In this document: one piece after another, positions 4,690 through 52,984 of the stretch
Numbering within the stretch: position 1 is the stretch's first letter
How the letters are laid out: every line of letters begins with the position of its first letter
NCBI GenBank assembly: GCA_026415435.1
Contig: JAOAHC010000045.1
Span: forward strand, 99,069-163,068
Source: Clostridia bacterium
Lineage (GTDB): Bacteria; Bacillota; Clostridia; TANB77; CAG-465
DNA: 64,000 nucleotides
Reading direction: 5' to 3'
Program-made: the position numbers and the translations under genes
The notes under the pieces: model-generated
What the model saw: only the letters and a program-made list of their open reading frames with translations
The model's database searches: none
Told to the model about the DNA's origin: nothing

Positions 4690-4995
4690 CTCAAAAGAAT
4701 GAAAATATGAATCTTACGAAGATGGAGAAGTAAAGAGCTTTGTGGATGCATTTTTTATGTCTTTGGTTTATCAAGAAATAGGGTTTCTTCATTTGAAAAG
4801 AAGGTAAAAAATAGATGGTAAAGATGGTTTTGTTGACCTGATTTGGAAAGGTGTAATTCTAATCAAAATGGAGAGTGAGGTAAAGATTTACAAAGAGTAT
4901 ACAATCAAGCTAAAGCTTATTTTGATGGTTTAAAAGATAGTTATCTTCTGAGATAAATTATGGTTTTTGATTTAGAAAAAATAAATTTATACGAT
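4690..4995 (+). pseudogene. N-terminal remnant (~100 codons) of an MmeI-like type IIG restriction-modification enzyme, with a frameshift and an in-frame stop
   Basis: Translation gives GFVDLIWKGVILIKMES then, after a frame change, KDLQRVYNQAKAYFDGLKDSYLLRYIMVFDLEK. This matches the conserved MmeI-family N-terminus (GFVDLFWPGILLIEMKS-KDLDKAYDQALDYF). The rest of the gene is absent. Confidence 0.55.
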
Positions 4996-5119
4996 TTAGA
5001 ATTAAGTAATAAATGAGAATTTTTTTATATATAATTCTTTTTGGAAAAAACATATTTTTTACTAACAAACTAATTTAGTTTATTATCCTCTCTATATTTT
5101 TCGTGTTTGATATATTTAA

Positions 5120-18073: not shown

Positions 18074-18457
18074 ATGCGAAAAAATTCTAATAAAATAACC
18101 ATATGGTTAGATGATAAAACATATAATGAAGTAAAGACGTATACAGAAACAAATAAACTGTATATGTCTGTTTTTATAAGAAGAGCAATACAAAATTTGC
18201 TAGAAGAAATAGATTCAAATAAAATACGAGATCCATTAAAAAAATTAATCCATACTCAAATAAAAGAGAGTATGGATATTTATATGGATAGAATAATTAA
18301 ACTAGTAATAAAATCAATACTTTCATCGGAAAGTGCTAATTATAATACAGGCGAATTACTTTCTAATATAAAGAGAATTGATAAAAAAGAAGTAAGAGAG
18401 ATTGCATACAGAAATGCGATAGAATATTTAAAGAAAAAAGGTGATAAATTTGAGTAA
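18074..18457 (+). CDS. Hypothetical small protein, a possible relaxosome accessory (MobC-like) factor
   Basis: Lies immediately upstream of, and overlaps, the relaxase gene. TGGAGGTG RBS. Confidence 0.4.
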   Translation: MRKNSNKITIWLDDKTYNEVKTYTETNKLYMSVFIRRAIQNLLEEIDSNKIRDPLKKLIHTQIKESMDIYMDRIIKLVIKSILSSESANYNTGELLSNIKRIDKKEVREIAYRNAIEYLKKKGDKFE

Positions 18458-19577
18458 AGTTATATCAAAACTTAGATGTTATAATCCAAGCAAGCTAGAT
18501 TCAACAAGGGGTAATATAGGACATTTATATTATATTTCAAGAAGGAGTAATGCATTACTTTATGATAACAAAACTGTATTTGGTAGAATAGGTAATAGTG
18601 ATTTAACAGATTTAGATTTAAAAGATATAGGTAGACATATAGCGGATAAATCAAATAATAAAACTAACATTTATAGAGGTATTATTTCATTAAAAGAAGA
18701 GGATGCATTAGAACTTGGATATGATAAAGTAAGTGAGTGGGAGTCATTAATGAAAGAAAAAGTATATGATATTGCAGGCGTAGTAAATATAGATATGCCT
18801 AATGCTGAGTGGATTGCTGTCGTACACTTAAAAAAAGGTAATCCACATTTGCATTATATGATGTGGGATAAAGAACAACAAATAAATAGATATTATATAT
18901 CTTTGTATCAACAAAATACGATAAGGGAGATACTTACGAAGCATATATTTGAAAATGAGTTATCAAAGTATTATGAAATTAAAAATGAAACAAAGAATAA
19001 ACTAAGAGATAGAACTATTGCACTTGAATTAAAAGCATTTAATGAAAGTGTATGTAAAGGTAAACTTGGATATTTAAATATTGATAATAAAGAATTAAAA
19101 GAAATAAGGAATAAATTATATAAAATATTAGAGGAGCTACCTAAAACAGGTAGCTTAAAATATGCCTATATGAGTGAAAATATAAAAAAAGATATAGATG
19201 AGTTTATGGAATTTGTTATTGATAAAAATACGGATTTAAAAGAAGAATATAGTTCATATATTGAAAATTCTGCAAATATAGGGAAATTATTTGGTAATAG
19301 TAATAAAATAGAAATAAAATTAAAGGTAGAACAAGAATTGAAAAAGATAATAGGTAATCAATTTTTAAGTTCAGTAAAAGATATGAAATACGATAAGTTA
19401 AATGAAAAAATATTTATAAATAATCTTTTACAAGAAATATATAGAATGATAAGCGTATTAAATGAAAGTAATAATTCAAAAAAAGAATTATATAGAAGAT
19501 ACAATATAGACATGTCAAAGCAGGCTCAAATAGACTATACAATAAATAAACAAAATTCTAGTAATATTGAGTGGTAA
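18441..19577 (+). CDS. Putative conjugative relaxase (MOBQ/MOBP-like Relaxase domain)
   Basis: Motif I YYISRR provides a candidate catalytic Tyr. Motif III is a histidine triad, HLKKGNPHLHYMMW (H-x5-NPHxH). The start could instead be TTG 18450. Confidence 0.5.
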   Translation: MINLSKVISKLRCYNPSKLDSTRGNIGHLYYISRRSNALLYDNKTVFGRIGNSDLTDLDLKDIGRHIADKSNNKTNIYRGIISLKEEDALELGYDKVSEWESLMKEKVYDIAGVVNIDMPNAEWIAVVHLKKGNPHLHYMMWDKEQQINRYYISLYQQNTIREILTKHIFENELSKYYEIKNETKNKLRDRTIALELKAFNESVCKGKLGYLNIDNKELKEIRNKLYKILEELPKTGSLKYAYMSENIKKDIDEFMEFVIDKNTDLKEEYSSYIENSANIGKLFGNSNKIEIKLKVEQELKKIIGNQFLSSVKDMKYDKLNEKIFINNLLQEIYRMISVLNESNNSKKELYRRYNIDMSKQAQIDYTINKQNSSNIEW

Positions 19578-20665: not shown

Positions 20666-20998
20666 ATGGAAGAACATTATTTAAAAATATTAGTAAAAGA
20701 TCCTGGTAAGAATCCTGAAGTGAAAAAAATACGAAAGCAATTAAAATCAATGCAAGACATAGTAGGAGGTTATATAGAAATAGTACCATATAAAGAGGCT
20801 ATAATTGTATGTAATGAAGAGGGGAAATTAAACAATTTAGAGCCAAATGTAAATCTGGACAAAGATTACATTGCAGGTTCTTTTTTTATTGTTGGAGATG
20901 ATGAAAAAAACGGAGACTTTAAAAGTTTAACAGATGAGCAAATAGAGAGATTCAAAAAAGAGTTTTCGATTAATTTAGAAGATGAAATGGAGATGTGA
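20666..20998 (+). CDS. Hypothetical protein (110 aa) upstream of the coupling-protein gene
   Basis: GGAGGTG RBS. Its stop overlaps the next gene's start. Confidence 0.55.
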   Translation: MEEHYLKILVKDPGKNPEVKKIRKQLKSMQDIVGGYIEIVPYKEAIIVCNEEGKLNNLEPNVNLDKDYIAGSFFIVGDDEKNGDFKSLTDEQIERFKKEFSINLEDEMEM

Positions 20999-20999
20999 T

Positions 21000-22844
21000 A
21001 TGAGAAATAAAGTATTGATTATTTTACCACTTATTATAGTATCAATACCAATAAGTATATTTTTTAGTTTTGTGATAGATAATTATTTAACTAAAAAAGC
21101 TTTTAGTATAGAGTCAATATCATTAAATAAAATACTTATAAATATAGGAAATAACATTAATTTAATTAAGCTGTTTTTTATGATACAACTTCTTATAATA
21201 GTGTTTATATTATTATTTACTATTTTAAAAAAAGATAATGAATTTAAAAGTGAGAATGTAAGAATAACAAATAATATATCAACTCCAAAAAAAGTAGGAC
21301 AAGGTCAGCATGGTACTTCTAGATGGCTAACAAGTAAAGAATTTGAGAACACCTTTAGTAAAAATATATTAGATTTATATAAAGATATAAGTAGTAATAT
21401 ATTTAATAGTGGGGGATTAGTTGTCGGTTATGAAAAAAAGAAAGATAAAGAGTATATATACTATATAAATGAAAATACTCATTCAATAACAATAGGAGCT
21501 ACCAGAAGTGGTAAAACAAGGACAATAGTATTGCAGACAATAGGAAATTTGGGATTTGCAGGTGAATCTATGATTATATCAGATCCAAAAGGTGAGATAT
21601 TTGAATTTACATCTGAGTTTTTAGAAAGTATAGGATATGAAATAGTAGTAATAGATTTTAAAGATCCACTTAAAAGTAATAAATATAATTTTTTACAACC
21701 AGTTATTGATGCAGTAAATAACAATGATTACCGAAAGGCAGAAGAATATGCATGGGATATAACAACAAGTTTAGTTGGAAGTGAAGACTCTAAAATGGAA
21801 AAGATTTGGAGAGATGGTGAAATGTCAATTATAGCTGGTAGTATAATGACAGTTGTATATGAAAATAAAGATAGACCTGAAGTTCAAAACTTAACTAATG
21901 TATATAGTTTTATATCTGAAATGTGCTTAAGCGATTATGGAGATATGCCAATAAACAGATATATAGAAGATTTAGATGATAATCATCCAGCCAAGAAAAT
22001 ATTTAATATAGCAAGAATTGCTCCTGAAAAAACAAGGGGCAGTTTTTTTACATCTGCTTTGACTACATTAAAGCTTTTTACAAGCGAATCAATTAACAAT
22101 ATGACTTGTAGAAGTGATTTTAATATAAAAGATACAGGAAAAATAAAAAGAGCGATATATATAATTTTACCTGATGAAAGAATCACGTATTATAGTTTAG
22201 CGAGTTTATTTGTAAATCAACAATATGTAAGTCTAGTTGAAGTTGCTGATATGAGAGGGGGTGAGCTAGAAAATAGAGTCAATTTCATGCTTGACGAATT
22301 TGGTAACTTTACAACTATACCAGGTTTTTCAAATATGCTCACAGTAGGAGGTGGTAGGAAAATACGATTTAATATATTTTTACAGTCATTTTCACAGCTT
22401 GAGAGTAAGTATTCAAAAGAGATAGCAAGTAATATATTAGATAACTGTCAAACTTGGATTTACTTAAAGACAGCAAATATAGATACTGCTAATAAAATAA
22501 TGAGAAAGTTAGGTAATTACACAACATCAAGTTATTCAAAATCTAATTCTTATGGGAAAAATGATAATGGGTCTAGTAGTAAATCAATGAATCTAATTAG
22601 TAGAGCATTACTTACAGAAGATGAAATTTTAAGAATAGAAAGACCTTATGTCCTAATAATAAATGCTGGAAATTATCCTGCAATAAAGATGATACCTGAT
22701 TTATCAAAGTGGCATTTTAATAAATTATTTGGCTTAGGTGATGTTGATTTTAATAGGAAAGTGAGGGAAGAAAGAAAAAATAAAAGAAGAATAAATGAAA
22801 GTGAAAAGATACAATTATGGGGAATATGGAAGGAATATAAATAG
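21000..22844 (+). CDS. Type IV coupling protein (VirD4/TraG-family ATPase)
   Basis: Two N-terminal TM helices, Walker A GATRSGKT and Walker B MLDEFGNF. Confidence 0.8.
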   Translation: MRNKVLIILPLIIVSIPISIFFSFVIDNYLTKKAFSIESISLNKILINIGNNINLIKLFFMIQLLIIVFILLFTILKKDNEFKSENVRITNNISTPKKVGQGQHGTSRWLTSKEFENTFSKNILDLYKDISSNIFNSGGLVVGYEKKKDKEYIYYINENTHSITIGATRSGKTRTIVLQTIGNLGFAGESMIISDPKGEIFEFTSEFLESIGYEIVVIDFKDPLKSNKYNFLQPVIDAVNNNDYRKAEEYAWDITTSLVGSEDSKMEKIWRDGEMSIIAGSIMTVVYENKDRPEVQNLTNVYSFISEMCLSDYGDMPINRYIEDLDDNHPAKKIFNIARIAPEKTRGSFFTSALTTLKLFTSESINNMTCRSDFNIKDTGKIKRAIYIILPDERITYYSLASLFVNQQYVSLVEVADMRGGELENRVNFMLDEFGNFTTIPGFSNMLTVGGGRKIRFNIFLQSFSQLESKYSKEIASNILDNCQTWIYLKTANIDTANKIMRKLGNYTTSSYSKSNSYGKNDNGSSSKSMNLISRALLTEDEILRIERPYVLIINAGNYPAIKMIPDLSKWHFNKLFGLGDVDFNRKVREERKNKRRINESEKIQLWGIWKEYK

Positions 22845-23193: not shown

Positions 23194-24054
23194 GTGGATA
23201 AGTTACTAACTAATTTTATAGTTTCAATAATAAGTAGTGCAGATAACGGTATAAATTATGTATTTAATAATTTACTAGACGTATGTTTTAATGCAGAAGA
23301 GAATTTAACTAATATAGCTGGAACACAAATATTGAACTTTGATGGGCTTAAAGCAATTATATTATCATTTTCAATATCATTAATAATACTCAAGTTTTTA
23401 AAGAAAGGTTTTGATGTATATATATTATGGGTTGAAGGAGATACCGATACACCACCACTTACTTTTATAACATATTTTGTTAGATCTTTAGTAATTGCAA
23501 TATCATTTCCAGTATTATACGAGTGGATGATAACAGTAGCTAAAGATTTTACAAATAAGATACTCACAACATTAAATGTGAGTGATCAAGTAGGACTTAC
23601 TACTAACTTAGCACAAGTTTCAGTAGTAAGTATTTTTTCAGCTATATTTGGAATTATAGTACTTATAATGTTGTTTTTATTATATATTCAATTTATAATG
23701 AGGGGAATAGAAATGTTTATATTAAAGCTAGGATTTCCACTTGCATGTGTCGGATTAGTTGATTCTGACAAAGGAGTATTTGCTCCATATGTAAAGAAAT
23801 TCTTTCAGAGTATAGTTACAGTAATAGTTCAAATAGCACTTGCTAAAATAGTAATACTTCTAATAGTATCAGATCAACTTATAAACGCAACAGCAGTACT
23901 TTTAGTAACACTTAGAACACCTAAATTCTTATCTGAATTTATGCTAATTTCAGGTAATGGAAGTAGTGGAATAAGCAATATGATACATACAACAAGTAAA
24001 TCTATAGAATTAAAAAAACAGCTAGCTAAAGTAGTAGAAAAAAAGGTGGCTTGA
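23194..24054 (+). CDS. VirB6/TrbL-like polytopic membrane protein of the T4SS
   Basis: 286 aa with at least five TM helices, located in the T4SS gene block. Confidence 0.6.
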   Translation: MDKLLTNFIVSIISSADNGINYVFNNLLDVCFNAEENLTNIAGTQILNFDGLKAIILSFSISLIILKFLKKGFDVYILWVEGDTDTPPLTFITYFVRSLVIAISFPVLYEWMITVAKDFTNKILTTLNVSDQVGLTTNLAQVSVVSIFSAIFGIIVLIMLFLLYIQFIMRGIEMFILKLGFPLACVGLVDSDKGVFAPYVKKFFQSIVTVIVQIALAKIVILLIVSDQLINATAVLLVTLRTPKFLSEFMLISGNGSSGISNMIHTTSKSIELKKQLAKVVEKKVA

Positions 24055-25865: not shown

Positions 25866-26480
25866 ATGAAATTTAGTGAATTTTTTAAACAAGAAAAAGA
25901 AAAATCTTGTAATGATGAAATAAATATAAAAGATATTAGAAATAATTTTTTATATACTAAAGACAATAAAATTATGATGTATATTAAGATCCAACCACTT
26001 AATATACATCTTTTATCTGAAAAAGAACAGGAGCAAATAATAAAAACACTTGCAGGAGAGTTATCAAGTGAAAATAGAGAAATGAAGTTTTTTAGTATAT
26101 CACGACCTGTTGATGTAGGTGATTTAATAGAAGATTTAAGAAAAATACAAAATGATAGCGTGGATCAAGTACAAAAAACATTATTAAATAAACATATTAA
26201 TGAAACAGTTAAACTTACATTTACAGGAGATGCGGTAGAGAGACAAAACTTTTTAATAATATGGCAAGATATAAGTGAATATGCAGAAAAAGATTTATTA
26301 AAAAGAGCTATGGATTTATTAAATAAATTTTCTAGTTGTAATATAAAAAGTGAAATATTAGAAGAACAATATATTATTCAGTTATGTAGTGGATTTACTA
26401 ATATGAATTTTGCATTTAAAGAAGATAGTGAATATAACGATTTTATGCCAAGTATAAGAAGGGAGGCAGATAATTATTGA
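25866..26480 (+). CDS. VirB4-family conjugation ATPase, N-terminal domain as a separate ORF
   Basis: GGAGGGG RBS. It ends at a TGA that overlaps the next ORF, which is in the -1 frame. Confidence 0.6.
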   Translation: MKFSEFFKQEKEKSCNDEINIKDIRNNFLYTKDNKIMMYIKIQPLNIHLLSEKEQEQIIKTLAGELSSENREMKFFSISRPVDVGDLIEDLRKIQNDSVDQVQKTLLNKHINETVKLTFTGDAVERQNFLIIWQDISEYAEKDLLKRAMDLLNKFSSCNIKSEILEEQYIIQLCSGFTNMNFAFKEDSEYNDFMPSIRREADNY

Positions 26481-28306
26481 AAATAAAAGAATTTGAAGGA
26501 GTACAGATAAATAATAGTCTACTTAATATTATTACTCCTATTTCAGGAATTGAATATAAACAAAATAAAATGAGAATAGGTGATAACTTTGCTAAAATAT
26601 ATACAATTATTAAATATCCTAAGAATGTTAAAATTGGATGGTTAAGTAAAATATCAAATATACCTAACACTATATCTACACAAATATTCGAGCCTACAGA
26701 TAATACTTTACTTATTGAAAATATATCAAAAGGTATAAGACAAAGTGAAATCATATATGAAACTTCAAAAGATGCCTTAGTTAGAAAAAGAGCTTTAAGA
26801 GAAATAGAAGATGCTCAAGAAATATTAGATAAAGTAGAAGTAAAAGGTGAAACAGTGGGCTATATGACAATAGCTATAATGGTACTTGCAGAAGATGAAG
26901 AAACTTTAAATAGAAGATGTAAGAGAGTTGAAAGTATAATATGTAGTATGCAACTTAAAATGAGAAGTTTAGCTAACTTGTTAAAAGAGTCATATCAAAC
27001 AATAGCACCATTCCATACAATTGATAAAACAATAAAACAAATAGCAAGAAGAAATATAATGATGTCTGACTTTATTGGTGGATTTCCATTTGGTGGTGGT
27101 GGACTTAATGATGGTAATGGATTCGTATTTGGTAAAGACACAACTGGAGGAATAGTAGTATTAGATACATGGAGGAGAGGATTAGATAGAACAAATAGTA
27201 ATTTTGTAGTAATGGGTACAAGTGGTGTTGGAAAATCCACTGCAACTAAACATTTAATACTAAATGAATATATGAGAAATACAAAAATAATAATAATAGA
27301 TCCTGAAAGAGAATATAGAACTCTATGTAATAAACTAGGTGGCGATTGGATAAATGTAGTAGGTAAAAATGGTGCTATGATAAATCCACTACAAATAAAA
27401 CCAGTACCTTTAGATGACGATGATGAAGATATTATAGGATATAAAGATGAGGGCAAAGGGCTTGGAGCAATGGCTTTACATATGCAAAATATAAGACCAT
27501 TTTTTAAGTTGCTCTTTCCTGAACTTACATATAATCAATCTACAATAATAAATGAGGCTCTAGAAAGCTTATATAACAAATTTAAAATATATTGGGATAC
27601 TGATATAACAAAACTTAAAAACAAGGAATTTCCTATAATTAAAGACTTATACGAGCTACTTAAAGATAGAGTATCAAAGTTGGAAAAAGAAAATAGTAAT
27701 ATATCTGATTATAAAATAGTATTATCTTTGTTAAGGGAAATAAGTATTGGTGCCGATAGTGAAATATTTAATGGACATACAAGTGTAAAAATTAATAGTA
27801 AGTGTATAGTACTTGATACATTCAGTTTGCAAAATAGTGATGAAAGAATAAAAAAAGCACAGTACTATAATATACTTACTTATTGTTGGGATATTATGAG
27901 CAAGAATAAAGATGAAAAAGTTTTACTTGTTTGTGATGAAGCATATTTAATGATTGATACACAAGTACCACAAAGTTTGGTATTTCTAAGGAATATAGCA
28001 AAAAGATGTAGAAAATATAATGGTGGGATTGTTATAATATCACATTCAGTTGTAGACTTTTTAGATCCTAGTGTAAAAATGTATGGACAGGCAATATTAG
28101 ATATGGCCTGCTATAAAATACTAATGGGATCAGATGGTAAAAACTTAGAAGAAATGAAGGTATTATATAAACTAACTGAAGCAGAAACAGATTTAATATA
28201 TTCAAGGCAGATGGGTGTAGCATTATTCATGGCTGGTACAAGCAGATTAAGTATTAAGTTTGATATATATAACTATGAATTTAATTACTTTTCAAAGAGT
28301 GTATAA
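26477..28306 (+). CDS. VirB4-family conjugation ATPase, C-terminal ATPase part
   Basis: Walker A GTSGVGKST and Walker B LLVCDEAY. TTG start 10 nt after GGGAGG. Confidence 0.75.
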   Translation: MKIKEFEGVQINNSLLNIITPISGIEYKQNKMRIGDNFAKIYTIIKYPKNVKIGWLSKISNIPNTISTQIFEPTDNTLLIENISKGIRQSEIIYETSKDALVRKRALREIEDAQEILDKVEVKGETVGYMTIAIMVLAEDEETLNRRCKRVESIICSMQLKMRSLANLLKESYQTIAPFHTIDKTIKQIARRNIMMSDFIGGFPFGGGGLNDGNGFVFGKDTTGGIVVLDTWRRGLDRTNSNFVVMGTSGVGKSTATKHLILNEYMRNTKIIIIDPEREYRTLCNKLGGDWINVVGKNGAMINPLQIKPVPLDDDDEDIIGYKDEGKGLGAMALHMQNIRPFFKLLFPELTYNQSTIINEALESLYNKFKIYWDTDITKLKNKEFPIIKDLYELLKDRVSKLEKENSNISDYKIVLSLLREISIGADSEIFNGHTSVKINSKCIVLDTFSLQNSDERIKKAQYYNILTYCWDIMSKNKDEKVLLVCDEAYLMIDTQVPQSLVFLRNIAKRCRKYNGGIVIISHSVVDFLDPSVKMYGQAILDMACYKILMGSDGKNLEEMKVLYKLTEAETDLIYSRQMGVALFMAGTSRLSIKFDIYNYEFNYFSKSV

Positions 28307-28309
28307 ATT

Positions 28310-28996
28310 ATGGCAATAGATCCAGTTACAGCTAAAATAATAACACAACAATTAACTAAAATAGCTTTAGATGAAGAAAAAAGGACTAAATTTATACTTG
28401 CAATAAGTATAGTTATAGTTTTTTTCTTACTTATTATATTCGTACCATTATATTTAATTATGAATCCAATTGAGACAATAAAATTATTACTTTCAGATGA
28501 AGATATAGGCATTGTAGAAAGTTTGAAAAAAGATAATCCCAATATTCCACAAAAAGGTGAATTAGTATTTAAAGGCAAATTTCCATTACCAATTCAAGGG
28601 ACAATAACAAGTGATTATGGATATAGAATAAATCCTATAACAGGAAAAGAAGAAAAACATACAGGTATTGATATTTCAGGTAAACATAGAGATAATATAA
28701 TTTCAGTAGAAGACGGAATAGTAACATTTGCAGGACTACAAAAAGGATATGGAAATTGCATAGAAATAAAACATGAATTAGAAAGTGAGATTTTTTATAG
28801 TTTTTATGCACATATGTCTAGAATAGATGTAATTGTAGGACAAGAATTAGAACAAGGAGATATTATTGGACAGGAAGGAGGTGATCCAAGTACAGATCCT
28901 TATCCAGGTTATAGCACAGGGCATCACTTACATTTTGAAATAAGATTAAAAAACGGATATGGTAATGATATAGATCCAATTAAATATATTTTCTAA
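28310..28996 (+). CDS. M23-family peptidoglycan endopeptidase (conjugation-associated wall hydrolase)
   Basis: N-terminal TM helix and the zinc motifs HTGIDI...HLHFEI. Confidence 0.85.
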   Translation: MAIDPVTAKIITQQLTKIALDEEKRTKFILAISIVIVFFLLIIFVPLYLIMNPIETIKLLLSDEDIGIVESLKKDNPNIPQKGELVFKGKFPLPIQGTITSDYGYRINPITGKEEKHTGIDISGKHRDNIISVEDGIVTFAGLQKGYGNCIEIKHELESEIFYSFYAHMSRIDVIVGQELEQGDIIGQEGGDPSTDPYPGYSTGHHLHFEIRLKNGYGNDIDPIKYIF

Positions 28997-29115
28997 AAAA
29001 TAGTTATGTTAAAATTGATGCAACACTTCATACGACAATATTCGACAAAAAATACCCGTAGCAATATTCTACAAGTTATGATATAATAATTCAAAATACG
29101 TGGGAGGTAATTTTT

Positions 29116-29535
29116 ATGGCAAAGAAAAAAGTTTTTGTATCATTTGATTTTGAAAATGATAGAAATTATAAATACTTACTAGAAGCTTGGAATAATAATT
29201 CGGAATTTGAATTTACAATGGAGGATAAATCATCAAGAGAAATTAATAGTTGGAATATTTCTACTATAAAAGGATCTTTAACAACAAAAATAAATCAATC
29301 AAATTATACTATTGTTATTATAGGAAGATATGCAAATGTTAAAGATAAAAACTCTGATATTATAGGATATAGGAATTGGCAGAATTTTGAAATTGCTAAA
29401 AGTAAAGAAAATGGCAATAAATTGATTGGTGTTAAACTAAATAGTACTTATGAATCACCAGAAGAGTTATTAGGAGCCGGAGCAAACTGGGCGACTTACA
29501 GTGTTGAAAGTATTATAAAAGCTCTTAATAGTTAA
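29116..29535 (+). CDS. TIR-like domain protein (DUF1863 / ThsB-like)
   Basis: The N-terminus MAKKKVFVSFDFEND and the block YTIVIIGRYAN...WQNFEIAKSKENGNKLIGVKLN resemble the Thoeris ThsB / MTH538 TIR-like pattern. GGGAGGT RBS. Confidence 0.6.
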   Translation: MAKKKVFVSFDFENDRNYKYLLEAWNNNSEFEFTMEDKSSREINSWNISTIKGSLTTKINQSNYTIVIIGRYANVKDKNSDIIGYRNWQNFEIAKSKENGNKLIGVKLNSTYESPEELLGAGANWATYSVESIIKALNS

Positions 29536-29536
29536 T

Positions 29537-30118
29537 ATGAAAGACTTAGAATTAATTTATGATCATTATAAAGATACTTTTAGTATGATAAAAGAAAATG
29601 AGAAAAAAAGGGATAAATTGTTTATACTTCTATTTGTATTGTTACTACTTTTGTTTTTATGTTCAATAATGCCAAGCGATATATATTCTATGTTTCAAGA
29701 CATTATAAAAAATAAATTAGAAACAAATATAATGTTTGGATTTGATATAATACAGACATTTTTATGGATAATAATATTTTATACTACTGTTAAATATTTT
29801 CAAATTGTAGTTCATATTAATAGAAGTTATGAATATTTAAACAATATTGAAAAACAAATTAATAAAAAGATTAAATTTAAATTTCAAAGAGAAGGAAATC
29901 AATATTTTGACAATTATCCTTTGTTATTAGACTATATTTATCAGATGTATATAACAGTTTTTCCTATATTATACGGATTACTTATTACATTTCAAATTTT
30001 ATTTGAATGGATAAAAAATAGTAATTTGTATCTAAATATAATTGATGCAATTATATATATATTTATTTTAATTCTTATAATTTTATATTATATTATATTA
30101 CACACTAAAAAAAATTAA
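29537..30118 (+). CDS. Four-TM membrane protein translationally coupled to the TIR gene; a candidate effector
   Basis: Its ATG falls 2 nt after the TIR gene stop. It has four hydrophobic helices and a ~45-aa cytoplasmic loop between TM2 and TM3. Confidence 0.6.
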   Translation: MKDLELIYDHYKDTFSMIKENEKKRDKLFILLFVLLLLLFLCSIMPSDIYSMFQDIIKNKLETNIMFGFDIIQTFLWIIIFYTTVKYFQIVVHINRSYEYLNNIEKQINKKIKFKFQREGNQYFDNYPLLLDYIYQMYITVFPILYGLLITFQILFEWIKNSNLYLNIIDAIIYIFILILIILYYIILHTKKN

Positions 30119-30137: not shown

Positions 30138-30782
30138 ATGAAAAAAATTGAAATAATAAATGAATACATAAATAAATGTAATGAAGTTATTGAATTAGAA
30201 GATAAAAATAAAGCAAGTCAATTGCAAGATGAAATTATAGCAGTGTATAGCCCAGAAATTGAAGATATTGTAAATGGGTTAGATAATTATAGTGGAAGAG
30301 GACTTTATGATGAATCTTTCAGAACAGATTTTATAAAAGATTTAAATCTATTAAGAGCTAAATTAATAAACTATAAATCTAATATTGAAATGAATGAAGA
30401 AAGAGATATACGAAGTTTAAAAAATAAAGAATATGATGTGGAAGTGTTAAGATACAAACAATTAATTATAAATAATACGAATAATAACAATACAACTGTT
30501 AGCAATAATAACAATAATATTACTAATGCAGTGCTAACAATAGATAATGTTTTAAAAAGAATTAATCAAATTAAAGAAAATGAAAAAATGTCTGAAATAG
30601 ATAAAGAAAATATGATATCAAATATTAATGAAGTAAAGGCTTTAATATTGCAAGGAAATAATGAAAAAGCTAATTCAAAATTAAAAGATTTTGTTAAATT
30701 TATAATTGATAAGGCTATTCCAATAGGTGCAGATATAATATTACAATTAGGTACAGTGACTGATTTTCTGAGTAAATTATAA
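30138..30782 (+). CDS. Hypothetical coiled-coil protein with a poly-Asn linker
   Basis: GGAAGG RBS. Confidence 0.5.
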   Translation: MKKIEIINEYINKCNEVIELEDKNKASQLQDEIIAVYSPEIEDIVNGLDNYSGRGLYDESFRTDFIKDLNLLRAKLINYKSNIEMNEERDIRSLKNKEYDVEVLRYKQLIINNTNNNNTTVSNNNNNITNAVLTIDNVLKRINQIKENEKMSEIDKENMISNINEVKALILQGNNEKANSKLKDFVKFIIDKAIPIGADIILQLGTVTDFLSKL

Positions 30783-43320: not shown

Positions 43321-46300
43321 ATGGAAGTAAAAAAAGATATTGAAGAAGTTAAGAAAAATGTTAATATGTATTTCAAGGATGAAGCAGTAAAAAATTATAA
43401 AGAGGATAAATTATATAATGGACATATTTCAAAAAATATAATTAATACTATTGAAGCAAATAGTCCACCTTATAATATAGCACTAATAGGTAAATGGGGT
43501 ACAGGCAAAACAAGTATACTAAATTTTGTACAAGCAGACTTAGAGGAAAAGGGATATATTTTTACTACGATAAATGCTTGGAAATATGAAAAAGATTCTA
43601 TTAGAAAAGCTTTTATATTGGAAATATTAAAAAAATTAGATTATAAAGAAGAAAAAATAAAAGATATTATAAAAGAATTTTTGGAAAATTTAAGTAAGAA
43701 ATATTACATAGATGAAAAAAATATTGAATTAGAGAGTTCAAGTAAATTTAAGAAGTTCCAAAAGATTATAAATTTCTTTAAACATATTGGCATTTATATA
43801 TTAAATTTATTTAGGGGAATATTCACCTTTTTTCCAATGGTAGTCATTTATATTTCAACGTTAGCTGTAATTGATATTATATTAAATATATATGGCGTAA
43901 ATATAGAAGATTATAATGGCATTCGATTAGAAGCAATTTTAAGCATGGTGTTATTTGTAATTGGTATTATATATGATGGCACTAAAATAGTAGCAAAATC
44001 CAAAAGAATAATAAATGTGAATGAGAGTATAAAAGATGCAACGTATTATGAATCTGAACTAGAAAATTATTTAAAAAAGTATAAAGCTGATATGAAAAAT
44101 GCTGGGAAAAAATTTAGTGGTGTAGTATGTATTATCGATGATATGGATAGATTAAATGCTTCCAAGATTGTTGAATCATTAAGCGCTGTTAAGGGATTTG
44201 TTGGGCTAGAAGATATAATATTTATAGTACCATATGATGTAAATATTGTCAAAGAAGCTATAAAGAAGAATCAAAATAATATTAATAATTACAATGCTTA
44301 TGAATTGGTTGAAAGTGAATTAGTATTAAATAAACTTTTCCAATTTAAATTTTATTTGCCAGAGTTGATAAAGCAGGATATGTATGAATATATTATTAAG
44401 TTATTAGATTCAAATGAGTGTGAAGTAGGTTTTATTAATAATTTGTTTGATAAATATTATTTTACAAATAGTATTCTACCTATTCTAATACACGAGCTCA
44501 TAGATACTCCTAGAGAGGCAAAAAATATTATAAATGCTTTTGTAAGTAAATATATTATTGCTAAAAATAGGCAAGAAGAGGGAATATTAGATTTAGAGCA
44601 AAATGATATAAGAATGTTAGCAAAGCTTACTGTTTTAGAAAATGATTATAAAGAATTATATGATTATATTTTAGATTATCCTGATATTCTAGATATAGTA
44701 CTTGAAATGTCAAAAGAAAAAGATGATATTGATGGTGATATTTTAAACGTCAAAAATTATAAATTAGAAGATTATAGTAAAGAAGAAATAATAATCTTCA
44801 CAAAACTTTTAAAATGCTATCAAAGAGTAAAATTTAAGTCATTAATTAATTTTCTATCATCATACAGTACTTTAAATGCAGATAATGTTGAAAGATTGAT
44901 ATACCTAAAAAATAGTGAAAAGGAAAATAAACATGGTGGTAAGATTGTAAAAGAATTTATTAACTATTTGAAAAGTTTAAATATTGAAAGTGCTAAAACT
45001 ACAATTTCTAAAATTGATAATGCATCAGAATTAATATATTTAGAACTTAATAAGTTAGATAGCAATCCAGATAAAAGAGATAACTTAGCAATATCAACAA
45101 TAAAGTTATTTGATAATATAAATAATTATAAAGAAGAAATATATAATATGATAGATAGTTATTTAAGTTATATAGATATTGAAGATAAAAAATTAAATGA
45201 AATTAAAATAGATGATTTATTAAAGATAATGAATATTAATCCAAAATTAAGTAATATAAAAGAGATTTTTATTAATAAGCTAAAAAATTACGATTATTCA
45301 GTAGAATATACAGGAACACGTGACAATTCTGATTATTACAATACTGGTAGAGTTAGTGATGATATTAATAGTATTATAAAAAATATTGATTTATTAGATG
45401 AAAGTTTATCAGGAATTGTAAAAGAATTTATAAAAAAAATATTTACTAATAAATTAGATAAGGAAAATGGAATAACTCAATATAATTTAAATTTTCTTGT
45501 AAAAAATATTAAAATTAAACTAAATGACAACTTAATAAATAAAGTACTAGGAAAAGAGTATATAGAAAATGTAATTAAAAATATTAGTAAAAACAACTTT
45601 GATAATATTAATCATATAAAAGAATACTATATTTCAACTGATAAAATAGATGATTTTATAGAGTTGATTGTAGCTTATTGTATTGATAAAAAAATAATAG
45701 AAAAAATATTAGATATTCTTACAGAAATAATAGATAAAGCAAGTTTTGAAAAAAAGAAAGATATATATAATTCATTTAATGATATAGATTTTATTGATTT
45801 AAAAGAAAAAGAATTTAAGTACGAAAAACTTGATACTTTACTTGCAAAAATAGAATTAAATAGAATAAATGATAATAGTAGTATAGATGATTTTATGAAT
45901 ACTTTATTTAAAATTTATACTTTACCCAAGACATTATCAAAGTTAGTAGACATCAATCTATTAAATGAAATGCCAAGTACATTAAATATTATTGAAAATG
46001 ATTTAATAAATAATCAAGACTACAATTTTATCTTAAATGGATTGTTTAGTAAATTAAATTTGGAGAATAGGAAAGATTTAATTGAAAAAATTAAAAGTAA
46101 GTATGATGAGATTTCTGAATACAAAGATTTATTATCATTAAATAAATTTATTGATGTATTTAAAGATAAGAAGTATGGAAATACATATTTAAACTCTATT
46201 TCTTCTAAAATTATTAATAAACTAAGGGATATGGAAAGTAGTGTTGAAACAGAAGAAGTTATATATTCTTTATTAGATAAATTGCATGAGAATATATATG

Positions 46301-47136
46301 TCTGCGATATGAGTGTAAGGATAGAGTATTTAGAATTTATACTAGAAGATATATTTGATTATAATAAAGAAAAAGCATTAGAATATATAAATGAAATTAA
46401 TTTTGAAATAGATAGTGAGAAGTTAAAAGATACATTAAAAAAAGTTTTAAATAAAAATTCAAATATTTCAAATATTAAAAAATTTATTTTTAGAAATAGT
46501 AATGCAATTAAATCAAATAATGAATATAAAGAAGATTTTATAGAATCATTTATATTGGAGCAGAAAGGCAATGAAAATTTAGATGATGAATTATTTAAAT
46601 TTATAACTGAATTTGATAATTTAAATAATAAAGATATATTAAATTTATATACTAATTTCTGGAATATAAAGTATCTTAAATATTTGGATTATCTAATATT
46701 AAGGAGTTCCAATAAAATTGAATTAATAAAAAGCATTATAGACAGTAATTTAAATTTAGATTTACTAATAGATATAATTAAACTTAAAAGTTATGAATGG
46801 AATAAAGATTGCTTAAATGAACTGTTGAAAATAGGAGAATATAAGTATTTAAAATCAATACTTTATATTATTTCAAAACTTGATAATATAAAAGGTATAG
46901 GAAATTTATTATTAAATGAAAAATTGAGAGAATATGCATTAAAATTAGAAGAATCTGAATTAGTAGGATTTTCTGAGATATTATCTTTATTAAGATACAA
47001 AAAAATTATAAATAAAACTACTTCTAAAGATATATTTTCTAAGATTACAGTTCACTTAGAAAAAACAAAAAATATTGAAATATCAAACGAAGTACTAAAT
47101 AAAGTATCATTTTTAAATCCTAAAATAAATATATAG
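43321..47136 (+). CDS. Giant KAP-family P-loop NTPase (1271 aa) with a long Lys/Asn-rich helical C-terminal extension
   Basis: Walker A IALIGKWGTGKTS. Two TM helices are inserted in the NTPase domain, which is the KAP hallmark. Walker B region VCIIDDMDR. Confidence 0.8.
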   Translation: MEVKKDIEEVKKNVNMYFKDEAVKNYKEDKLYNGHISKNIINTIEANSPPYNIALIGKWGTGKTSILNFVQADLEEKGYIFTTINAWKYEKDSIRKAFILEILKKLDYKEEKIKDIIKEFLENLSKKYYIDEKNIELESSSKFKKFQKIINFFKHIGIYILNLFRGIFTFFPMVVIYISTLAVIDIILNIYGVNIEDYNGIRLEAILSMVLFVIGIIYDGTKIVAKSKRIINVNESIKDATYYESELENYLKKYKADMKNAGKKFSGVVCIIDDMDRLNASKIVESLSAVKGFVGLEDIIFIVPYDVNIVKEAIKKNQNNINNYNAYELVESELVLNKLFQFKFYLPELIKQDMYEYIIKLLDSNECEVGFINNLFDKYYFTNSILPILIHELIDTPREAKNIINAFVSKYIIAKNRQEEGILDLEQNDIRMLAKLTVLENDYKELYDYILDYPDILDIVLEMSKEKDDIDGDILNVKNYKLEDYSKEEIIIFTKLLKCYQRVKFKSLINFLSSYSTLNADNVERLIYLKNSEKENKHGGKIVKEFINYLKSLNIESAKTTISKIDNASELIYLELNKLDSNPDKRDNLAISTIKLFDNINNYKEEIYNMIDSYLSYIDIEDKKLNEIKIDDLLKIMNINPKLSNIKEIFINKLKNYDYSVEYTGTRDNSDYYNTGRVSDDINSIIKNIDLLDESLSGIVKEFIKKIFTNKLDKENGITQYNLNFLVKNIKIKLNDNLINKVLGKEYIENVIKNISKNNFDNINHIKEYYISTDKIDDFIELIVAYCIDKKIIEKILDILTEIIDKASFEKKKDIYNSFNDIDFIDLKEKEFKYEKLDTLLAKIELNRINDNSSIDDFMNTLFKIYTLPKTLSKLVDINLLNEMPSTLNIIENDLINNQDYNFILNGLFSKLNLENRKDLIEKIKSKYDEISEYKDLLSLNKFIDVFKDKKYGNTYLNSISSKIINKLRDMESSVETEEVIYSLLDKLHENIYVCDMSVRIEYLEFILEDIFDYNKEKALEYINEINFEIDSEKLKDTLKKVLNKNSNISNIKKFIFRNSNAIKSNNEYKEDFIESFILEQKGNENLDDELFKFITEFDNLNNKDILNLYTNFWNIKYLKYLDYLILRSSNKIELIKSIIDSNLNLDLLIDIIKLKSYEWNKDCLNELLKIGEYKYLKSILYIISKLDNIKGIGNLLLNEKLREYALKLEESELVGFSEILSLLRYKKIINKTTSKDIFSKITVHLEKTKNIEISNEVLNKVSFLNPKINI

Positions 47137-51767: not shown

Positions 51768-51850
51768 TAATATTTTAGTTGTGGAGGTGATGTTAATGTG
51801 ATTATTTAAGTAAAAATAGATTGGAACTAGAAAAAAAGGAGGAATTTGAA

Positions 51851-52984
51851 TTGTCAGTTAGAGAAATAGCAAAAAATAAGTATAGAATAGAAATACCAAT
51901 AGCATATATAGGTTCGAAAAGAAAAAGGCATGTTGAGACACTTGATAATACAACATTAAAGCAAGCAAAGCTTAGAGAAGCTGAGATAAAATTAGAATTA
52001 ACTAATAACAATTATATAAAGAAGATTAATATTACTTTTGAACAACTATTAGATGAATGGCTTAAAATGCAAGAAAGTAAACTTGCAATAAAAACATATA
52101 AGAACTATGTTAATTATTCTAAAAGAATTAAAGATAGTATAGGATATGTTAAATTAAAAGATATAAACCCTAGAATATTAGAAGGTTTTTATAATGATTT
52201 AAGAACAAATACGACTTATGCTGATAAGACAATAAAACATTACTATACATTAATTAATACAGTATTAAGTACAGCAGTTAAATGGGATTATATAAAAACT
52301 AATCCAAATACTAAAGTAGATAAAATTATTGTAAAAAAGAAGCAAGGAAGATTTTATACACCTGAACAAGTAGCTAAATTAGTAAATGCTCTAGAAAGTG
52401 AAAGCTTAAAGTATAAAGTATTAATTATACTAGCAATAGATACAGGATGTAGAAGAGGAGAACTTACAGGATTAGAATGGAATGATATAGACTTTGAAAA
52501 AGGGATTATATATATAAATAAAACTACTCAATATGTAGCAGGAATAGGAACCTTTGAAAAGGGAACAAAAGGAAATAGAGGATACACTAGTGATAGAAAA
52601 ATTCATATATCTAAAACAACTAAAGAATTATTATTAGAATTTAAGGAAGAACAAAGCAAACTTAAAGATAAACTAGGAGAATTGTGGCAAGGTAGCAAAA
52701 GAATCTTTACAACTGATTGGGGAGCAGATATGCATCCTAATACACCATCGGCTATACTTACTAAAATACTAGAGAGAAATAAACTAGATTATATAAATTT
52801 TCATGGATTAAGACATACTAGTATTTCATTACAAATTGAGTTAGGGATACAACCACAGGTTATATCTAAGAGAGCAGGACATAGCAATTTAAATACAACT
52901 CATAGTATATACTCTCATTTCTTTGAAAGCAGTTTTGAAGAAGTACCAGAAAAGATAGATGCTTTTTTACATGCATCAACATAA
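51851..52984 (+). CDS. int: Tyrosine integrase (phage/island type)
   Basis: HGLRHTSISL...AGHSNLNTTHSIYSH catalytic residues. AGGAGG RBS 8 nt before TTG 51851. The ORF track starts at 51821. Confidence 0.85.
   Translation: MSVREIAKNKYRIEIPIAYIGSKRKRHVETLDNTTLKQAKLREAEIKLELTNNNYIKKINITFEQLLDEWLKMQESKLAIKTYKNYVNYSKRIKDSIGYVKLKDINPRILEGFYNDLRTNTTYADKTIKHYYTLINTVLSTAVKWDYIKTNPNTKVDKIIVKKKQGRFYTPEQVAKLVNALESESLKYKVLIILAIDTGCRRGELTGLEWNDIDFEKGIIYINKTTQYVAGIGTFEKGTKGNRGYTSDRKIHISKTTKELLLEFKEEQSKLKDKLGELWQGSKRIFTTDWGADMHPNTPSAILTKILERNKLDYINFHGLRHTSISLQIELGIQPQVISKRAGHSNLNTTHSIYSHFFESSFEEVPEKIDAFLHAST

What the first reader, a model, noticed from the sequence alone, without database searches (positions are those of the whole stretch)
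29116..30118. ThsB-like TIR gene coupled to a 4-TM protein: candidate two-gene Thoeris-like abortive-infection cargo
The TIR-like (DUF1863) ORF stops 2 nt before the ATG of a 193-aa protein. That protein has four TM helices and a ~45-aa cytoplasmic loop. It has no SIR2, SLOG or Macro domain like those of the known ThsA effectors. A TIR signal generator paired with a minimal membrane effector resembles Pycsar/CBASS TM effectors. As recalled, this pairing has not been described as a Thoeris variant. The location between the T4SS hydrolase gene and other cargo fits a defence payload on an ICE.
Basis: inference. Interest (0 to 1): 0.75.

Follow-up and report, generated by a model that had tools for sequence, protein, structure and literature searches.

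The report
TIR plus four-helix membrane defence pair
Two tightly coupled genes on a conjugative element encode a small TIR enzyme and a four-helix membrane protein; the pair recurs across bacteria and archaea, looks like an anti-phage "Thoeris" signalling system, and was already listed as an untested candidate in a 2025 preprint.

Summary
A 139-aa ThsB-type TIR gene (29116-29535) is followed after 1 nt by a 193-aa gene for a four-TM protein with no known domain (29537-30118).

- **TIR:** it keeps the catalytic WxxxE motif, and E92 aligns with Bacillus cereus ThsB E85. Its model best matches solved ThsB structures.
- **Pairing:** the membrane protein family has about 900 clusters at 50% identity. 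It sits beside a TIR gene in 67 of 74 species-level loci, across more than ten phyla, CPR bacteria and archaea. In three of these loci the TIR belongs to another family (TIR_2).
- **Mobility:** the pair occurs as a single Vibrio integron cassette, on a small plasmid-like contig, beside type I R-M genes, and here in a variable cargo slot of an ICE.

The best reading is a Thoeris-type system: the TIR makes an NAD-derived signal that gates a membrane-disrupting effector. No experiment supports this yet.

Yirmiya et al. (bioRxiv, Dec 2025) list a "4TM" effector class among 29 putative Thoeris types. Its TIRs are 40-61% identical to this one, and the class was not tested. The signal molecule, the effector fold and the direction of signalling remain open. 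Interest is moderate.

The parts
29079..29087 (+). Possible extended -10 promoter element (TGaTATAAT) in the 119-nt gap after the M23 hydrolase gene
   Evidence: Read directly from the sequence. The consensus scan did not list it because no good -35 hexamer is present. Inference only.
29102..29107 (+). Ribosome-binding site GGGAGG, 8 nt before the TIR start codon
   Evidence: Read directly from the sequence.
29116..29535 (+). thsB-like gene: 139-aa single-domain TIR protein (PF08937/DUF1863), with a WxxxE motif and putative catalytic E92
   Evidence: Pfam E 3.4e-10 and PADLOC ThsB 2.2e-11. It has 738 or more relatives of about 141 aa at 60-79% identity across phyla. W88 and E92 are invariant in a 41-sequence alignment. 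E92 aligns with BcThsB E85. The model has pLDDT 81 and its best structural matches are ThsB structures.
29537..30118 (+). Putative effector: 193-aa four-TM protein of an unannotated family (the '4TM' class). Conserved cytoplasmic motifs are HYKDTF...R25, Y87-F-Q89...R96-x-Y98-x-Y100, and R118-E-G120-xx-Y123...Y127-P128.
   Evidence: Profile searches find 651 clusters at 90% identity and 897 clusters at 50% identity, almost all stand-alone proteins of 190-225 aa. There is no Pfam, PADLOC or PDB relative. The model has pLDDT 87.5. Hydropathy and K/R distribution indicate N-in/C-in topology. Conservation is concentrated in residues 1-27 and 87-128.
28310..28996 (+). M23 peptidase (T4SS cell-wall hydrolase): left border of the variable cargo slot. 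Not part of the system.
   Evidence: Pfam PF01551, E 1.2e-22. Related elements L097-L099 keep VirB4-M23 but have other content, or nothing, after it.
30138..30782 (+). 214-aa ORF of unknown function that shares the cargo slot. Not a conserved partner of the pair.
   Evidence: No Pfam or PADLOC hit. No homolog in any of about 100 fetched loci, nor in a metagenome scan.
30833..31915 (+). 360-aa ORF: the conserved element backbone resumes here (right border of the slot)
   Evidence: Homologs follow M23 in L097, L098 and L099, which lack the TIR/4TM pair.

Best explanation
This is a self-contained two-gene Thoeris-type anti-phage module carried as cargo on an integrative conjugative element of a low-GC Clostridia bacterium.

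Proposed mechanism:
1. The 139-aa ThsB-like TIR is the sensor and signal generator. On phage infection it uses its WxxxE active site (E92) to convert NAD+ into an ADP-ribose-derived second messenger.
2. The messenger binds the conserved cytoplasmic face of the four-TM protein. That face comprises the N-terminal helix with H10-Y11-K12...R25, the juxtamembrane helix Y87-F-Q89...R96-x-Y98-x-Y100, and the R118-E-G120...Y127-P128 loop.
3. The membrane protein then oligomerises or opens, the membrane is compromised, and the cell stops growing or dies before phage progeny are released.

A cyclic ADPR isomer is my best guess for the messenger, possibly canonical cADPR as made by a validated Bacillus type VII Thoeris TIR of the same sequence cluster.

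**Shown here:** the genes, the TIR family and fold, retention of the catalytic motif, the four-TM topology, the conserved pairing and its mobility.
**Inferred:** signalling, the ligand, membrane disruption and phage defence.
For: - **TIR identity and catalytic motif:**
- **Pairing:** 64 of 74 species-level loci with the membrane gene have the same TIR family adjacent on the same strand (56 TIR-then-TM, 8 TM-then-TIR). Three more (L056, L067, L074) have PF13676 TIR_2 proteins instead. Swapping between TIR families is what one expects of an effector that reads a TIR product. Two further loci are cut at a contig end.
- **Tight operon:** gaps are 1-44 nt or the genes overlap.
- **Co-inheritance:** identity matrices of the two proteins correlate over 61 unique pairs (Mantel r 0.55, p 0.001).
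- **Self-contained unit:** no third gene recurs. In Vibrio owensii the two genes alone form one integron cassette between two attC-like repeats.
- **Defence and MGE neighbourhoods:** type I R-M genes in L001-3 and L010-12; an SLFN-type helicase plus M78/Fic in L006-9; a Mob_Pre/RepA_N plasmid-like contig in L090.
- **Cargo slot in the window's element:** the slot is empty in L099 and holds an Apea-HEPN protein plus an MT-A70 methylase in L097/L098.
- **Where conservation lies:** in the membrane protein it is on the predicted cytoplasmic side and is rich in Arg, Lys, His and Tyr, as expected for a nucleotide pocket.
- **Literature:** Yirmiya et al. 2025 place '4TM'-associated TIRs in cluster 2727267812 together with type VII ThsB from B. 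licheniformis. The three validated type VII systems, of which this is one, are reported to make canonical cADPR.
Against: - There is no experimental evidence for defence, signal production or toxicity for any member of this family. The '4TM' class was not tested by Yirmiya et al., and only 15 of the 30 operons they did test gave protection.
- The TIR is much more conserved than the membrane protein (mean pairwise identity 54% against 32%; TIR higher in 99.6% of comparisons). From my recollection this is the reverse of type I Thoeris, where ThsB is the variable sensor.
- The ligand guess is weak. The window TIR is only 35-39% identical to the type VII TIRs. The same paper shows that a single TIR cluster can include type I and type IV systems, which use 3'cADPR and N7-cADPR respectively.
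- The window copy departs from near-invariant family residues. In the TIR these are H77D and D79N, shared with its closest clade. In the membrane protein they are E95N and Q97S (shared) and H102N (unique). Reduced function of this copy cannot be excluded.
Confidence: 0.6

Rival explanations
1. Reverse logic: the four-TM protein is the sensor or activator (for example of membrane perturbation during phage DNA injection or lysis preparation), or a membrane anchor. The minimal TIR is then the toxic effector that depletes NAD+, as in TIR effectors of CBASS, Pycsar, SPARTA and Avs. This would still be a defence system, but not a Thoeris-type signalling system.
For: - The TIR is the more conserved partner (54% against 32% mean identity), as expected of an enzyme effector rather than a fast-evolving phage sensor.
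- A 139-aa TIR has no separate sensor domain.
- Yirmiya et al. state explicitly that in non-verified putative types the TIR may act as an NAD+-depleting effector.
- One clade shows joint changes in the TIR loop (H77D/D79N) and the membrane protein's cytoplasmic helix (E95N/Q97S). Direct contact could explain this, but it is a single event.
Against: - Single-domain ThsB proteins of validated Thoeris types also lack separate sensor domains and do sense phage.
- The membrane protein also pairs with unrelated TIR_2 proteins. A shared small-molecule product explains this more easily than a specific protein-protein interface.
- The listed '4TM' TIRs cluster with signalling ThsB proteins.
- TM segments normally diverge fast, so the asymmetry in conservation is weak evidence.
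Confidence: 0.2
2. The pair is not an anti-phage system. It could be an addiction or toxin-antitoxin-like stabilisation module, or a function that serves conjugation (entry exclusion, mating-pair control), since it lies inside the T4SS gene block.
For: - It lies between the T4SS hydrolase and the adhesin genes, on the same strand as the transfer genes.
- It is frequently found on mobile elements: ICE, plasmid-like contig, integron cassette.
Against: - Most relatives are not next to conjugation genes. They sit beside type I R-M systems, recombinases or ordinary chromosomal genes in many phyla, including CPR bacteria and archaea.
- Related conjugative elements lack the pair altogether, and one has an empty slot. 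The pair is therefore dispensable for transfer.
- Neighbouring cargo in the same slot elsewhere is conflict-related: Apea-HEPN and a methylase.
Confidence: 0.07
3. The family is a real defence pair, but this particular copy is inactive or decaying, carried along as passenger DNA.
For: - The window proteins differ from residues that are at least 85-95% conserved in the family. In the TIR these are H77D, D79N and K75V. In the membrane protein they are E95N, Q97S, H102N, T117Q and L124F.
- H77 is invariant in the 60 other pairs examined, and H102N is unique to the window.
Against: - Both ORFs are intact and full length. All strictly invariant positions are kept, including W88/E92 and H10, R25, Y87, Q89, Y100, E119, G120 and Y123.
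- Most of the deviations are shared with the nearest relatives (P0002, P0003, P0012, P0015, P0017). Those are also intact pairs on other mobile elements. This looks like a viable subfamily rather than decay.
- The tight 1-nt coupling, RBS and promoter-like element are preserved.
Confidence: 0.12

Closest known systems
'4TM' putative Thoeris effector class of Yirmiya et al. 2025 (bioRxiv 10.64898/2025.12.03.692087; Fig. 1C, Table S1, TIR cluster 2727267812)
   Same: - A short ThsB-type TIR of about 140 aa sits next to a four-TM protein with no annotated domain.
- Eight sampled TIRs of the class are 40-61% identical to the window TIR over the full length.
- They are 57-77% identical to TIRs that flank this membrane family in my loci.
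- This is almost certainly the same system.
   Different: - Only TIR sequences are given in the table, so identity of the effector family is inferred rather than checked residue by residue.
- The class was not cloned or tested, and the term '4TM' does not occur in the paper's main text.
- New here: the family's size (about 900 clusters at 50% identity), its spread to CPR bacteria and archaea, its conserved cytoplasmic motifs, pairing with TIR_2 proteins, the cassette and ICE-slot contexts, and the lack of relation to SLATT.
Type VII Thoeris (ThsB + SLATT-domain ThsH; signal is canonical cADPR)
   Same: - Two-gene operon with a small membrane effector.
- Bacillus type VII TIRs are in the same TIR cluster and are 35-39% identical to the window TIR.
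- Related TIRs in Staphylococcus prophages pair with DUF4231/SLATT_1 proteins.
   Different: - The window effector is not a SLATT protein. No member hits a SLATT model, and hhalign against a DUF4231/SLATT_1 protein gives probability 0.3%.
- It has four TM helices, whereas SLATT is by name a 2TM domain.
- The signal is unknown.
Type V Thoeris (ThsB + DUF2270 three-TM ThsF; 3'cADPR) and type X Thoeris (ThsB + ion-channel effector)
   Same: - A TIR plus a small multi-pass membrane effector.
- For ThsF, the proposed ligand pocket is at cytoplasmic protomer interfaces.
   Different: - No sequence relation: PF10028 and ion-channel families are not detected.
- The TIRs listed for those types belong to other clusters, and the type X TIR is about 21% identical.
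Type II Thoeris (ThsB + TM-Macro effector; His-ADPR) and type I Thoeris (ThsB + SIR2-SLOG ThsA; 3'cADPR)
   Same: - ThsB-type TIR with a catalytic Glu in WxxxE.
- Adjacent effector gene.
- In type II, the effector acts on the membrane.
   Different: - No Macro, SLOG or SIR2 domain.
- The effector is less than half the size.
- Similarity to the BcThsB TIR is confined to the catalytic helix region.
Membrane effectors of CBASS and Pycsar (for example 2TM/4TM effectors, Cap15, SLATT)
   Same: The concept is the same: a nucleotide second messenger activates a small TM protein that disrupts the membrane (abortive infection).
   Different: - The signal generator is a TIR, not a CD-NTase or pyrimidine cyclase.
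- There is no significant PADLOC hit to CBASS or Pycsar effector models.

Membership tests
Thoeris (any type) | A ThsB-type TIR-domain protein | tested here: met
   PF08937 at 40.7 bits against a cut-off of 21.2. PADLOC ThsB 2.2e-11. Best structural matches of the model are ThsB structures 8fz9, 9b7d, 8wcf and 8v6t.
Thoeris (any type) | Catalytic glutamate of the TIR NADase/cyclase site retained | tested here: met
   W88 and E92 are invariant in 41 family members. The profile alignment places the window's WQNFE on BcThsB W81-V-R-Y-E85. That E85 is the catalytic residue is from my recollection of the literature.
Thoeris (any type) | A separate effector gene in the same operon, conserved with the TIR across genomes | tested here: met
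   67 of 74 species-level loci have a TIR adjacent on the same strand; 2 more are cut at a contig end. Mantel r is 0.55, p 0.001.
Thoeris (any type) | Effector carries a recognised signal-sensing domain (SLOG, Macro and similar) | tested here: not met
   No Pfam, PADLOC or PDB relative for the window protein or 62 relatives. Only an unclassified conserved cytoplasmic region is present. Several validated new types (DUF2270, DUF6650) also lacked a known sensor domain, so this feature is not strictly defining.
Thoeris (any type) | Phage-triggered production of an NAD-derived signalling molecule by the TIR | not testable with these tools
   Needs infection of TIR-only cells and LC-MS, as in Yirmiya et al..
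Thoeris (any type) | Protection against phage that depends on both genes | not testable with these tools
   No member of this family has been tested, and the class is absent from Table S2 of Yirmiya et al..
Thoeris (any type) | Enrichment in defence islands or mobile elements | tested here: met
   Neighbours include type I R-M genes, an SLFN-type helicase, an integron cassette array and a plasmid-like contig. The window's ICE slot holds HEPN/MTase cargo in relatives. This is a survey of examples, not a statistical enrichment test; Yirmiya et al. selected TIR clusters for enrichment next to known defence genes.
'4TM' putative Thoeris class (Yirmiya et al. 2025) | TIR belongs to the same sequence group as the listed '4TM' TIRs (cluster 2727267812) | tested here: met
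   BLASTP gives 40-61% identity over about 136 residues to eight listed entries, E 1e-37 to 4e-60.
'4TM' putative Thoeris class (Yirmiya et al. 2025) | The effector is the same four-TM protein family | tested here: inconclusive
   Effector sequences are not in the held table. Indirect support: the listed TIRs are 57-77% identical to TIRs that flank this family in my loci, and the label '4TM' fits the topology.
Type VII Thoeris | SLATT-domain effector (ThsH) | tested here: not met
   No SLATT or DUF4231 hit in 63 members. hhalign probability is 0.3% against a bona fide DUF4231/SLATT_1 protein.
Type II Thoeris | TM effector with a C-terminal Macro domain | tested here: not met
   No Macro domain. 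The protein ends 5 residues after TM4.
Type V Thoeris | DUF2270 (PF10028) three-TM effector | tested here: not met
   PF10028 was not detected in any of 63 members.

The most novel reading that the evidence does not exclude
The four-TM protein founds a new fold of ligand-gated membrane effector: a minimal pore or channel opened directly by a TIR-made ADPR-type nucleotide, possibly canonical cADPR. Binding would occur at a juxtamembrane cytoplasmic pocket built from the HYKDTF...R, YFQ...RxYxY and REG..Y..YP motifs. The effector would be shared by bacteria, CPR bacteria and archaea, and able to work with at least two different TIR families. That would be a prokaryotic counterpart of cADPR-gated channel signalling, achieved with about 70 soluble residues.
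Probability: 0.3. Interest if true: 0.7.

Novelty: new member of a known kind. Interest (0 to 1): 0.4.

Why it matters
- **An open Thoeris type.** If the prediction holds, this is one of the most compact Thoeris systems (about 1 kb) and one of the most widely spread. Its effector has no known fold, and its signal has not been identified. These are the "missing molecules and effectors" that the Thoeris field lists as open.
- **A defined target for mutagenesis.** The conserved cytoplasmic motifs mapped here give a concrete pocket to mutate.
- **A test of signalling direction.** The pairing with two TIR families, and the reversed conservation pattern, allow a direct test of whether the TIR or the membrane protein is the sensor.
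- **ICE biology.** The slot after the T4SS hydrolase gene behaves as an exchangeable site for conflict cargo.

The idea itself is no longer new, because TIR plus TM-effector systems are validated and this class is already catalogued.

Tried and rejected
- **Source of the window.** Megablast of the 8-kb region against PLSDB plasmids found no match.
- **Membrane protein against annotated records.** tblastn against plasmid and phage collections found no match. It is too divergent for single-sequence search.
- **Hidden SLATT relationship.** Rejected: there are no Pfam SLATT hits in 63 members, and hhalign probability is 0.3%.
- **PADLOC candidate PDC-M50.** The TIR hits PDC-M50B (3.7e-7), but no member of the membrane family hits any PDC-M50 model and no paper mentions it. 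I dropped this lead.
- **Third conserved gene.** Neighbour clustering found none. An apparent 11-locus LexA cluster shrank to 3-4 related CPR loci on direct BLAST. The downstream 214-aa ORF has no homolog anywhere I looked.
- **Fusions or extra domains.** The longer family members have no Pfam domain.
- **Residue covariation between TIR 77/79 and TM 95/97/102.** Only the window's own clade departs, so the analysis is uninformative.
- **Other literature on TIR plus 4TM.** None found.
Full report
**1. What is in the sequence**

- Two same-strand ORFs lie at 29116-29535 (139 aa) and 29537-30118 (193 aa). They are separated by a single base: the stop TAA is at 29533-29535 and the ATG at 29537.
- Upstream there is a 119-nt gap after an M23 peptidase gene. 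It contains a GGGAGG ribosome-binding site (29102-29107) and a TGaTATAAT extended -10-like element (29079-29087). I read both directly from the sequence; the generic promoter scan is no better than its shuffles in this AT-rich DNA.
- Exact protein matches show that the window comes from a 178-kb contig of a Clostridia MAG.

**2. The TIR protein**

- It passes Pfam's threshold for PF08937 (ThsB_TIR/DUF1863) and hits several PADLOC ThsB models.
- It belongs to a very uniform family of proteins of about 141 aa. There are 738 or more clusters at 60-79% identity to the window protein, in Vibrio, Turicibacter, Lutibacter, Deltaproteobacteria and many metagenomes.
- In a 41-sequence alignment, W88 and E92 are invariant.
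- A profile search of PDB sequences aligns the window's KNWQNFEIAKSKENGNK with RRWVRYEIMKSIEKGNK of B. cereus ThsB. This places E92 on E85, which I recall as the catalytic residue of that enzyme.
- The AlphaFold model (pLDDT 81) has the flavodoxin-like TIR fold. Its best Foldseek matches are ThsB crystal structures 8fz9, 9b7d, 8wcf and 8v6t.

**3. The membrane protein**

- Hydropathy gives four hydrophobic segments at about 28-45, 69-86, 129-152 and 165-188.
- Lys and Arg are concentrated in the N-terminal 27 residues (7), the 87-128 loop (7) and the C-terminal tail (2). The two short outer loops have 2 and 1. The predicted topology is therefore N-in/C-in.
- The model (pLDDT 87.5) is all-helical. 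TM1 and TM2 extend into the cytoplasm as long helices.
- Nothing known matches it:
  - no Pfam or PADLOC family in it or in 62 relatives;
  - no PDB sequence relative;
  - nothing in BFVD;
  - no relation to SLATT (hhalign probability 0.3%).
- The family is nevertheless large. A word-index profile search found 651 clusters at 90% identity. An exhaustive HMMER search of 1.84 billion representatives found 897 clusters at 50% identity.
- Nearly all members are stand-alone proteins of 190-225 aa, and the longer ones have no Pfam domain.
- Invariant or near-invariant residues lie almost entirely on the predicted cytoplasmic side: H10, Y11, K12, D13, F15, R25; Y87, Q89, R96, Y98, Y100, E105; R118, E119, G120, Y123, Y127, P128.
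- Regional conservation is 0.54-0.62 for residues 1-27 and 87-128. It is 0.33-0.47 for the TM segments and outer loops.

**4. Is the pairing conserved?**

- Every homolog I looked up by exact protein had the partner next to it (L001-L012). This includes Vibrio owensii, where the membrane gene is simply not called in the record.
- A scan of one genome per species (GTDB) with the membrane-protein profile returned 74 loci. They come from Bacillota, Bacteroidota, Pseudomonadota, Patescibacteria/CPR, Poribacteria, Chloroflexota, Planctomycetales, Nitrospira, Omnitrophota, Cloacimonadota and archaea of the Methanothrix group.
- The 74 loci break down as follows:

| Loci | Arrangement |
|---|---|
| 64 | Family TIR adjacent on the same strand (56 upstream, 8 downstream of the membrane gene) |
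| 3 (L056, L067, L074) | A different TIR family, PF13676 TIR_2, adjacent; L067 has two such genes |
| 2 | Membrane gene at a contig end, so the neighbour cannot be seen |
| 1 (L049) | No TIR gene; a 770-nt gap upstream with no ORF of 70 aa or more |
| 4 (Poribacteria) | Divergent or frameshifted copies next to a TPR gene or other genes |

- Over 61 unique pairs, the identity matrices of the two proteins correlate (Mantel r 0.55, p 0.001). The two genes therefore travel together.
- No third gene recurs.
- The second refutation test (no co-occurrence) is also passed.

**5. Mobility and context**

- In the window, the pair lies within the transfer region of an ICE-like element:
  - MobL relaxase at 18441-19577;
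  - coupling protein at 20982-22844;
  - TrbL at 23194-24054;
  - VirB4-like ATPase at 26477-28306;
  - M23 hydrolase at 28310-28996;
  - thioester/SpaA adhesins at 33268-35974;
  - integrase at 38526-39701.
- Related conjugative elements from metagenomes keep the order o204-VirB4-M23 ... o360-o276 but lack the pair.
  - In L099 the slot after M23 is empty.
  - In L097 and L098 it holds an Apea-like HEPN protein and an MT-A70 methyltransferase.
  - The slot is thus an exchangeable site for conflict-related cargo.
- Elsewhere the same pair occurs in several settings:
  - In Vibrio owensii it forms a single integron cassette bounded by two attC-like repeats, 1.7 kb from the integrase.
  - Its closest relative (73%/79% identity) lies on an 11-kb Mob_Pre/RepA_N contig.
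  - It lies next to an integrase in L091.
  - It lies beside or inside type I R-M operons in L001-3 and L010-12.
- It is rare on viral contigs: 4 loci in IMG/VR.

**6. Mechanism**

- The anatomy fits a Thoeris-type signalling system. A small catalytically competent ThsB-like TIR would act as sensor and signal generator. A membrane effector would carry its only strongly conserved surface on the cytoplasmic side, rich in Arg, Lys, His and Tyr as expected for a nucleotide pocket.
- The effector pairs with two unrelated TIR families. This argues that it reads a TIR product rather than a particular TIR surface.
- The steps after gene identity are inference: signal synthesis, binding, membrane disruption and abortive infection.
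- For the ligand, the only lead is indirect.
  - Yirmiya et al. place the '4TM' TIRs in the same cluster (2727267812) as the ThsB of the validated B. licheniformis type VII system.
  - The paper reports canonical cADPR production for three SLATT-associated TIRs, matching its three validated type VII systems, and shows cADPR-specific toxicity for the B. licheniformis system.
  - However, the window TIR is only 35-39% identical to the type VII TIRs.
  - The same paper shows that one cluster can contain both type I and type IV TIRs, which make different molecules.

**7. Rivals**

- The main rival is the reverse logic, with the membrane protein as sensor and the TIR as NAD+-depleting effector.
  - The authors of the preprint leave this open for all non-verified types.
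  - One odd fact fits it: the TIR is far more conserved than its partner (54% against 32% mean identity).
- A conjugation or addiction role is unlikely, given the contexts listed above.
- The window copy could be impaired. It and its nearest clade carry H77D/D79N in the TIR and E95N/Q97S in the membrane protein, and H102N is unique to the window.
- Against impairment, all strictly invariant residues are intact, and the clade's pairs are intact on other mobile elements.

**8. Comparison with the literature**

- Thoeris with membrane effectors is established: type II, and types V, VII and X in Yirmiya et al..
- That preprint's Table S1 also lists a '4TM' effector class with 31 visible TIR entries. 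Those I sampled are 40-61% identical to the window TIR. They are 57-77% identical to TIRs that sit beside this membrane family in my loci.
- The class is one of the 'additional putative effectors' (Fig. 1C). It was not among the 30 operons tested, and the term '4TM' does not occur in the main text.
- I found no other paper on it.

**9. Verdict**

- The feature is real, well conserved and very probably a defence module.
- It is a new member of a class that has been catalogued but not validated.
- This analysis adds the following: the family's size and phyletic range, its motif map and topology, the lack of relation to SLATT, the swapping between TIR families, the cassette and ICE-slot evidence, and the unexplained conservation asymmetry.
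- Interest is moderate (0.4). A specialist would not be surprised by the architecture. The unknown signal, the unknown effector fold and the undecided direction of signalling are directly testable.

Noticed in passing
window 29116-30118, compared with alignments A2 and A3: The window's clade departs from otherwise near-invariant residues in both partners at once. In the TIR these are F35M, H77D and D79N, shared only with P0012, P0015 and P0017; H77 is invariant in the 60 other pairs. In the membrane protein they are E95N (shared with P0002 and P0003), Q97S and T117Q (shared with P0002), and H102N in the window alone. This could be co-adaptation (a contact or ligand change) or drift. It is a single evolutionary event, so it is not statistically informative.
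   Followed up: partly
61 unique TIR/4TM pairs from L001-L086 and the window: The TIR is more conserved than its membrane partner in 99.6% of pairwise comparisons (mean identity 54% against 32%). From my recollection this is the opposite of type I Thoeris, where ThsB is the variable component. Unexplained.
   Followed up: partly
L056 5635-6684; L067 5702-6148 and 6182-6922; L074 302-1237: In a Chloroflexia, a Chitinophagales and a Heliomicrobium MAG, the four-TM gene is paired with PF13676 TIR_2 proteins rather than the PF08937 family. L067 has two such TIR genes, and one protein carries a long coiled-coil tail.
   Followed up: partly
L078, L080, L084, L085 (Poribacteria MAGs): These are divergent four-TM homologs without any TIR neighbour; L078 and L080 sit after a TPR-repeat gene. 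The REG motif is changed to REI/REL/RES where it can be read, and the L084 and L085 copies are frameshifted. They may be decaying or repurposed.
   Followed up: no
L004 3786-3857 and 5084-5155 (Vibrio owensii JBEWWJ010000001.1): The TIR/4TM pair is bounded by two attC/VCR-like direct repeats (74% identical over 72 nt) in a cassette array next to an integron-type integrase. It is a two-gene integron cassette. The membrane gene (4426-5090) is not called in the record.
   Followed up: partly
L071 3265-5447 (Methanothrix MAG): This archaeal copy has its four-TM gene split into two parts (3716-3916 and 4998-5447) by about 1.1 kb of inserted DNA. An intact pair is present in a Methanotrichaceae MAG (L079).
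   Followed up: no
L097 4583-6485 and L098 (related conjugative elements): In these elements, the slot after the T4SS M23 hydrolase holds a 421-aa Apea-like HEPN protein (PF18739) and an MT-A70 methyltransferase, where the window has the TIR/4TM pair. In L099 the slot is empty. The site appears to be a cargo hot spot.
   Followed up: partly
window 43321-47136: A 1271-aa KAP-family P-loop NTPase hits PADLOC PifA (4.6e-20) and QatA (3.1e-16) models. It may be a second defence gene on or near the element. A second integrase lies at 51821-52984, and the MetRS gene at 55679-57616 marks chromosomal DNA.
   Followed up: no
L023, L032, L034 (and weakly L055), CPR/Patescibacteria MAGs: A LexA-like repressor gene lies just upstream of the TIR gene, on the opposite strand in L023, L032 and L034. 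This may be shared synteny or SOS-type control. An apparent 11-locus cluster proved to be an artefact of single-linkage clustering.
   Followed up: partly
L088 2061-2899 (Staphylococcus phage SN8) and 21 other Staphylococcus phage records; L087 (Acinetobacter plasmid pAR1): More distant relatives of the TIR (32-44% identity) occur in other arrangements. In SN8, the one Staphylococcus phage I examined, the TIR gene is paired with a DUF4231/SLATT_1 gene (type VII-like) near the integrase. Four Acinetobacter plasmids also carry such a TIR; in pAR1, the one I examined, three TIR genes flank a TPR-S sensor protein.
   Followed up: partly
Yirmiya et al. Table S1, entries ga0169192_10055220/22, ga0243717_100018678/80, ga0245165_10037627/29: Some '4TM' loci list two different TIR genes whose gene numbers differ by two. 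This implies a TIR-4TM-TIR arrangement. I did not see it in the window or in my loci.
   Followed up: no
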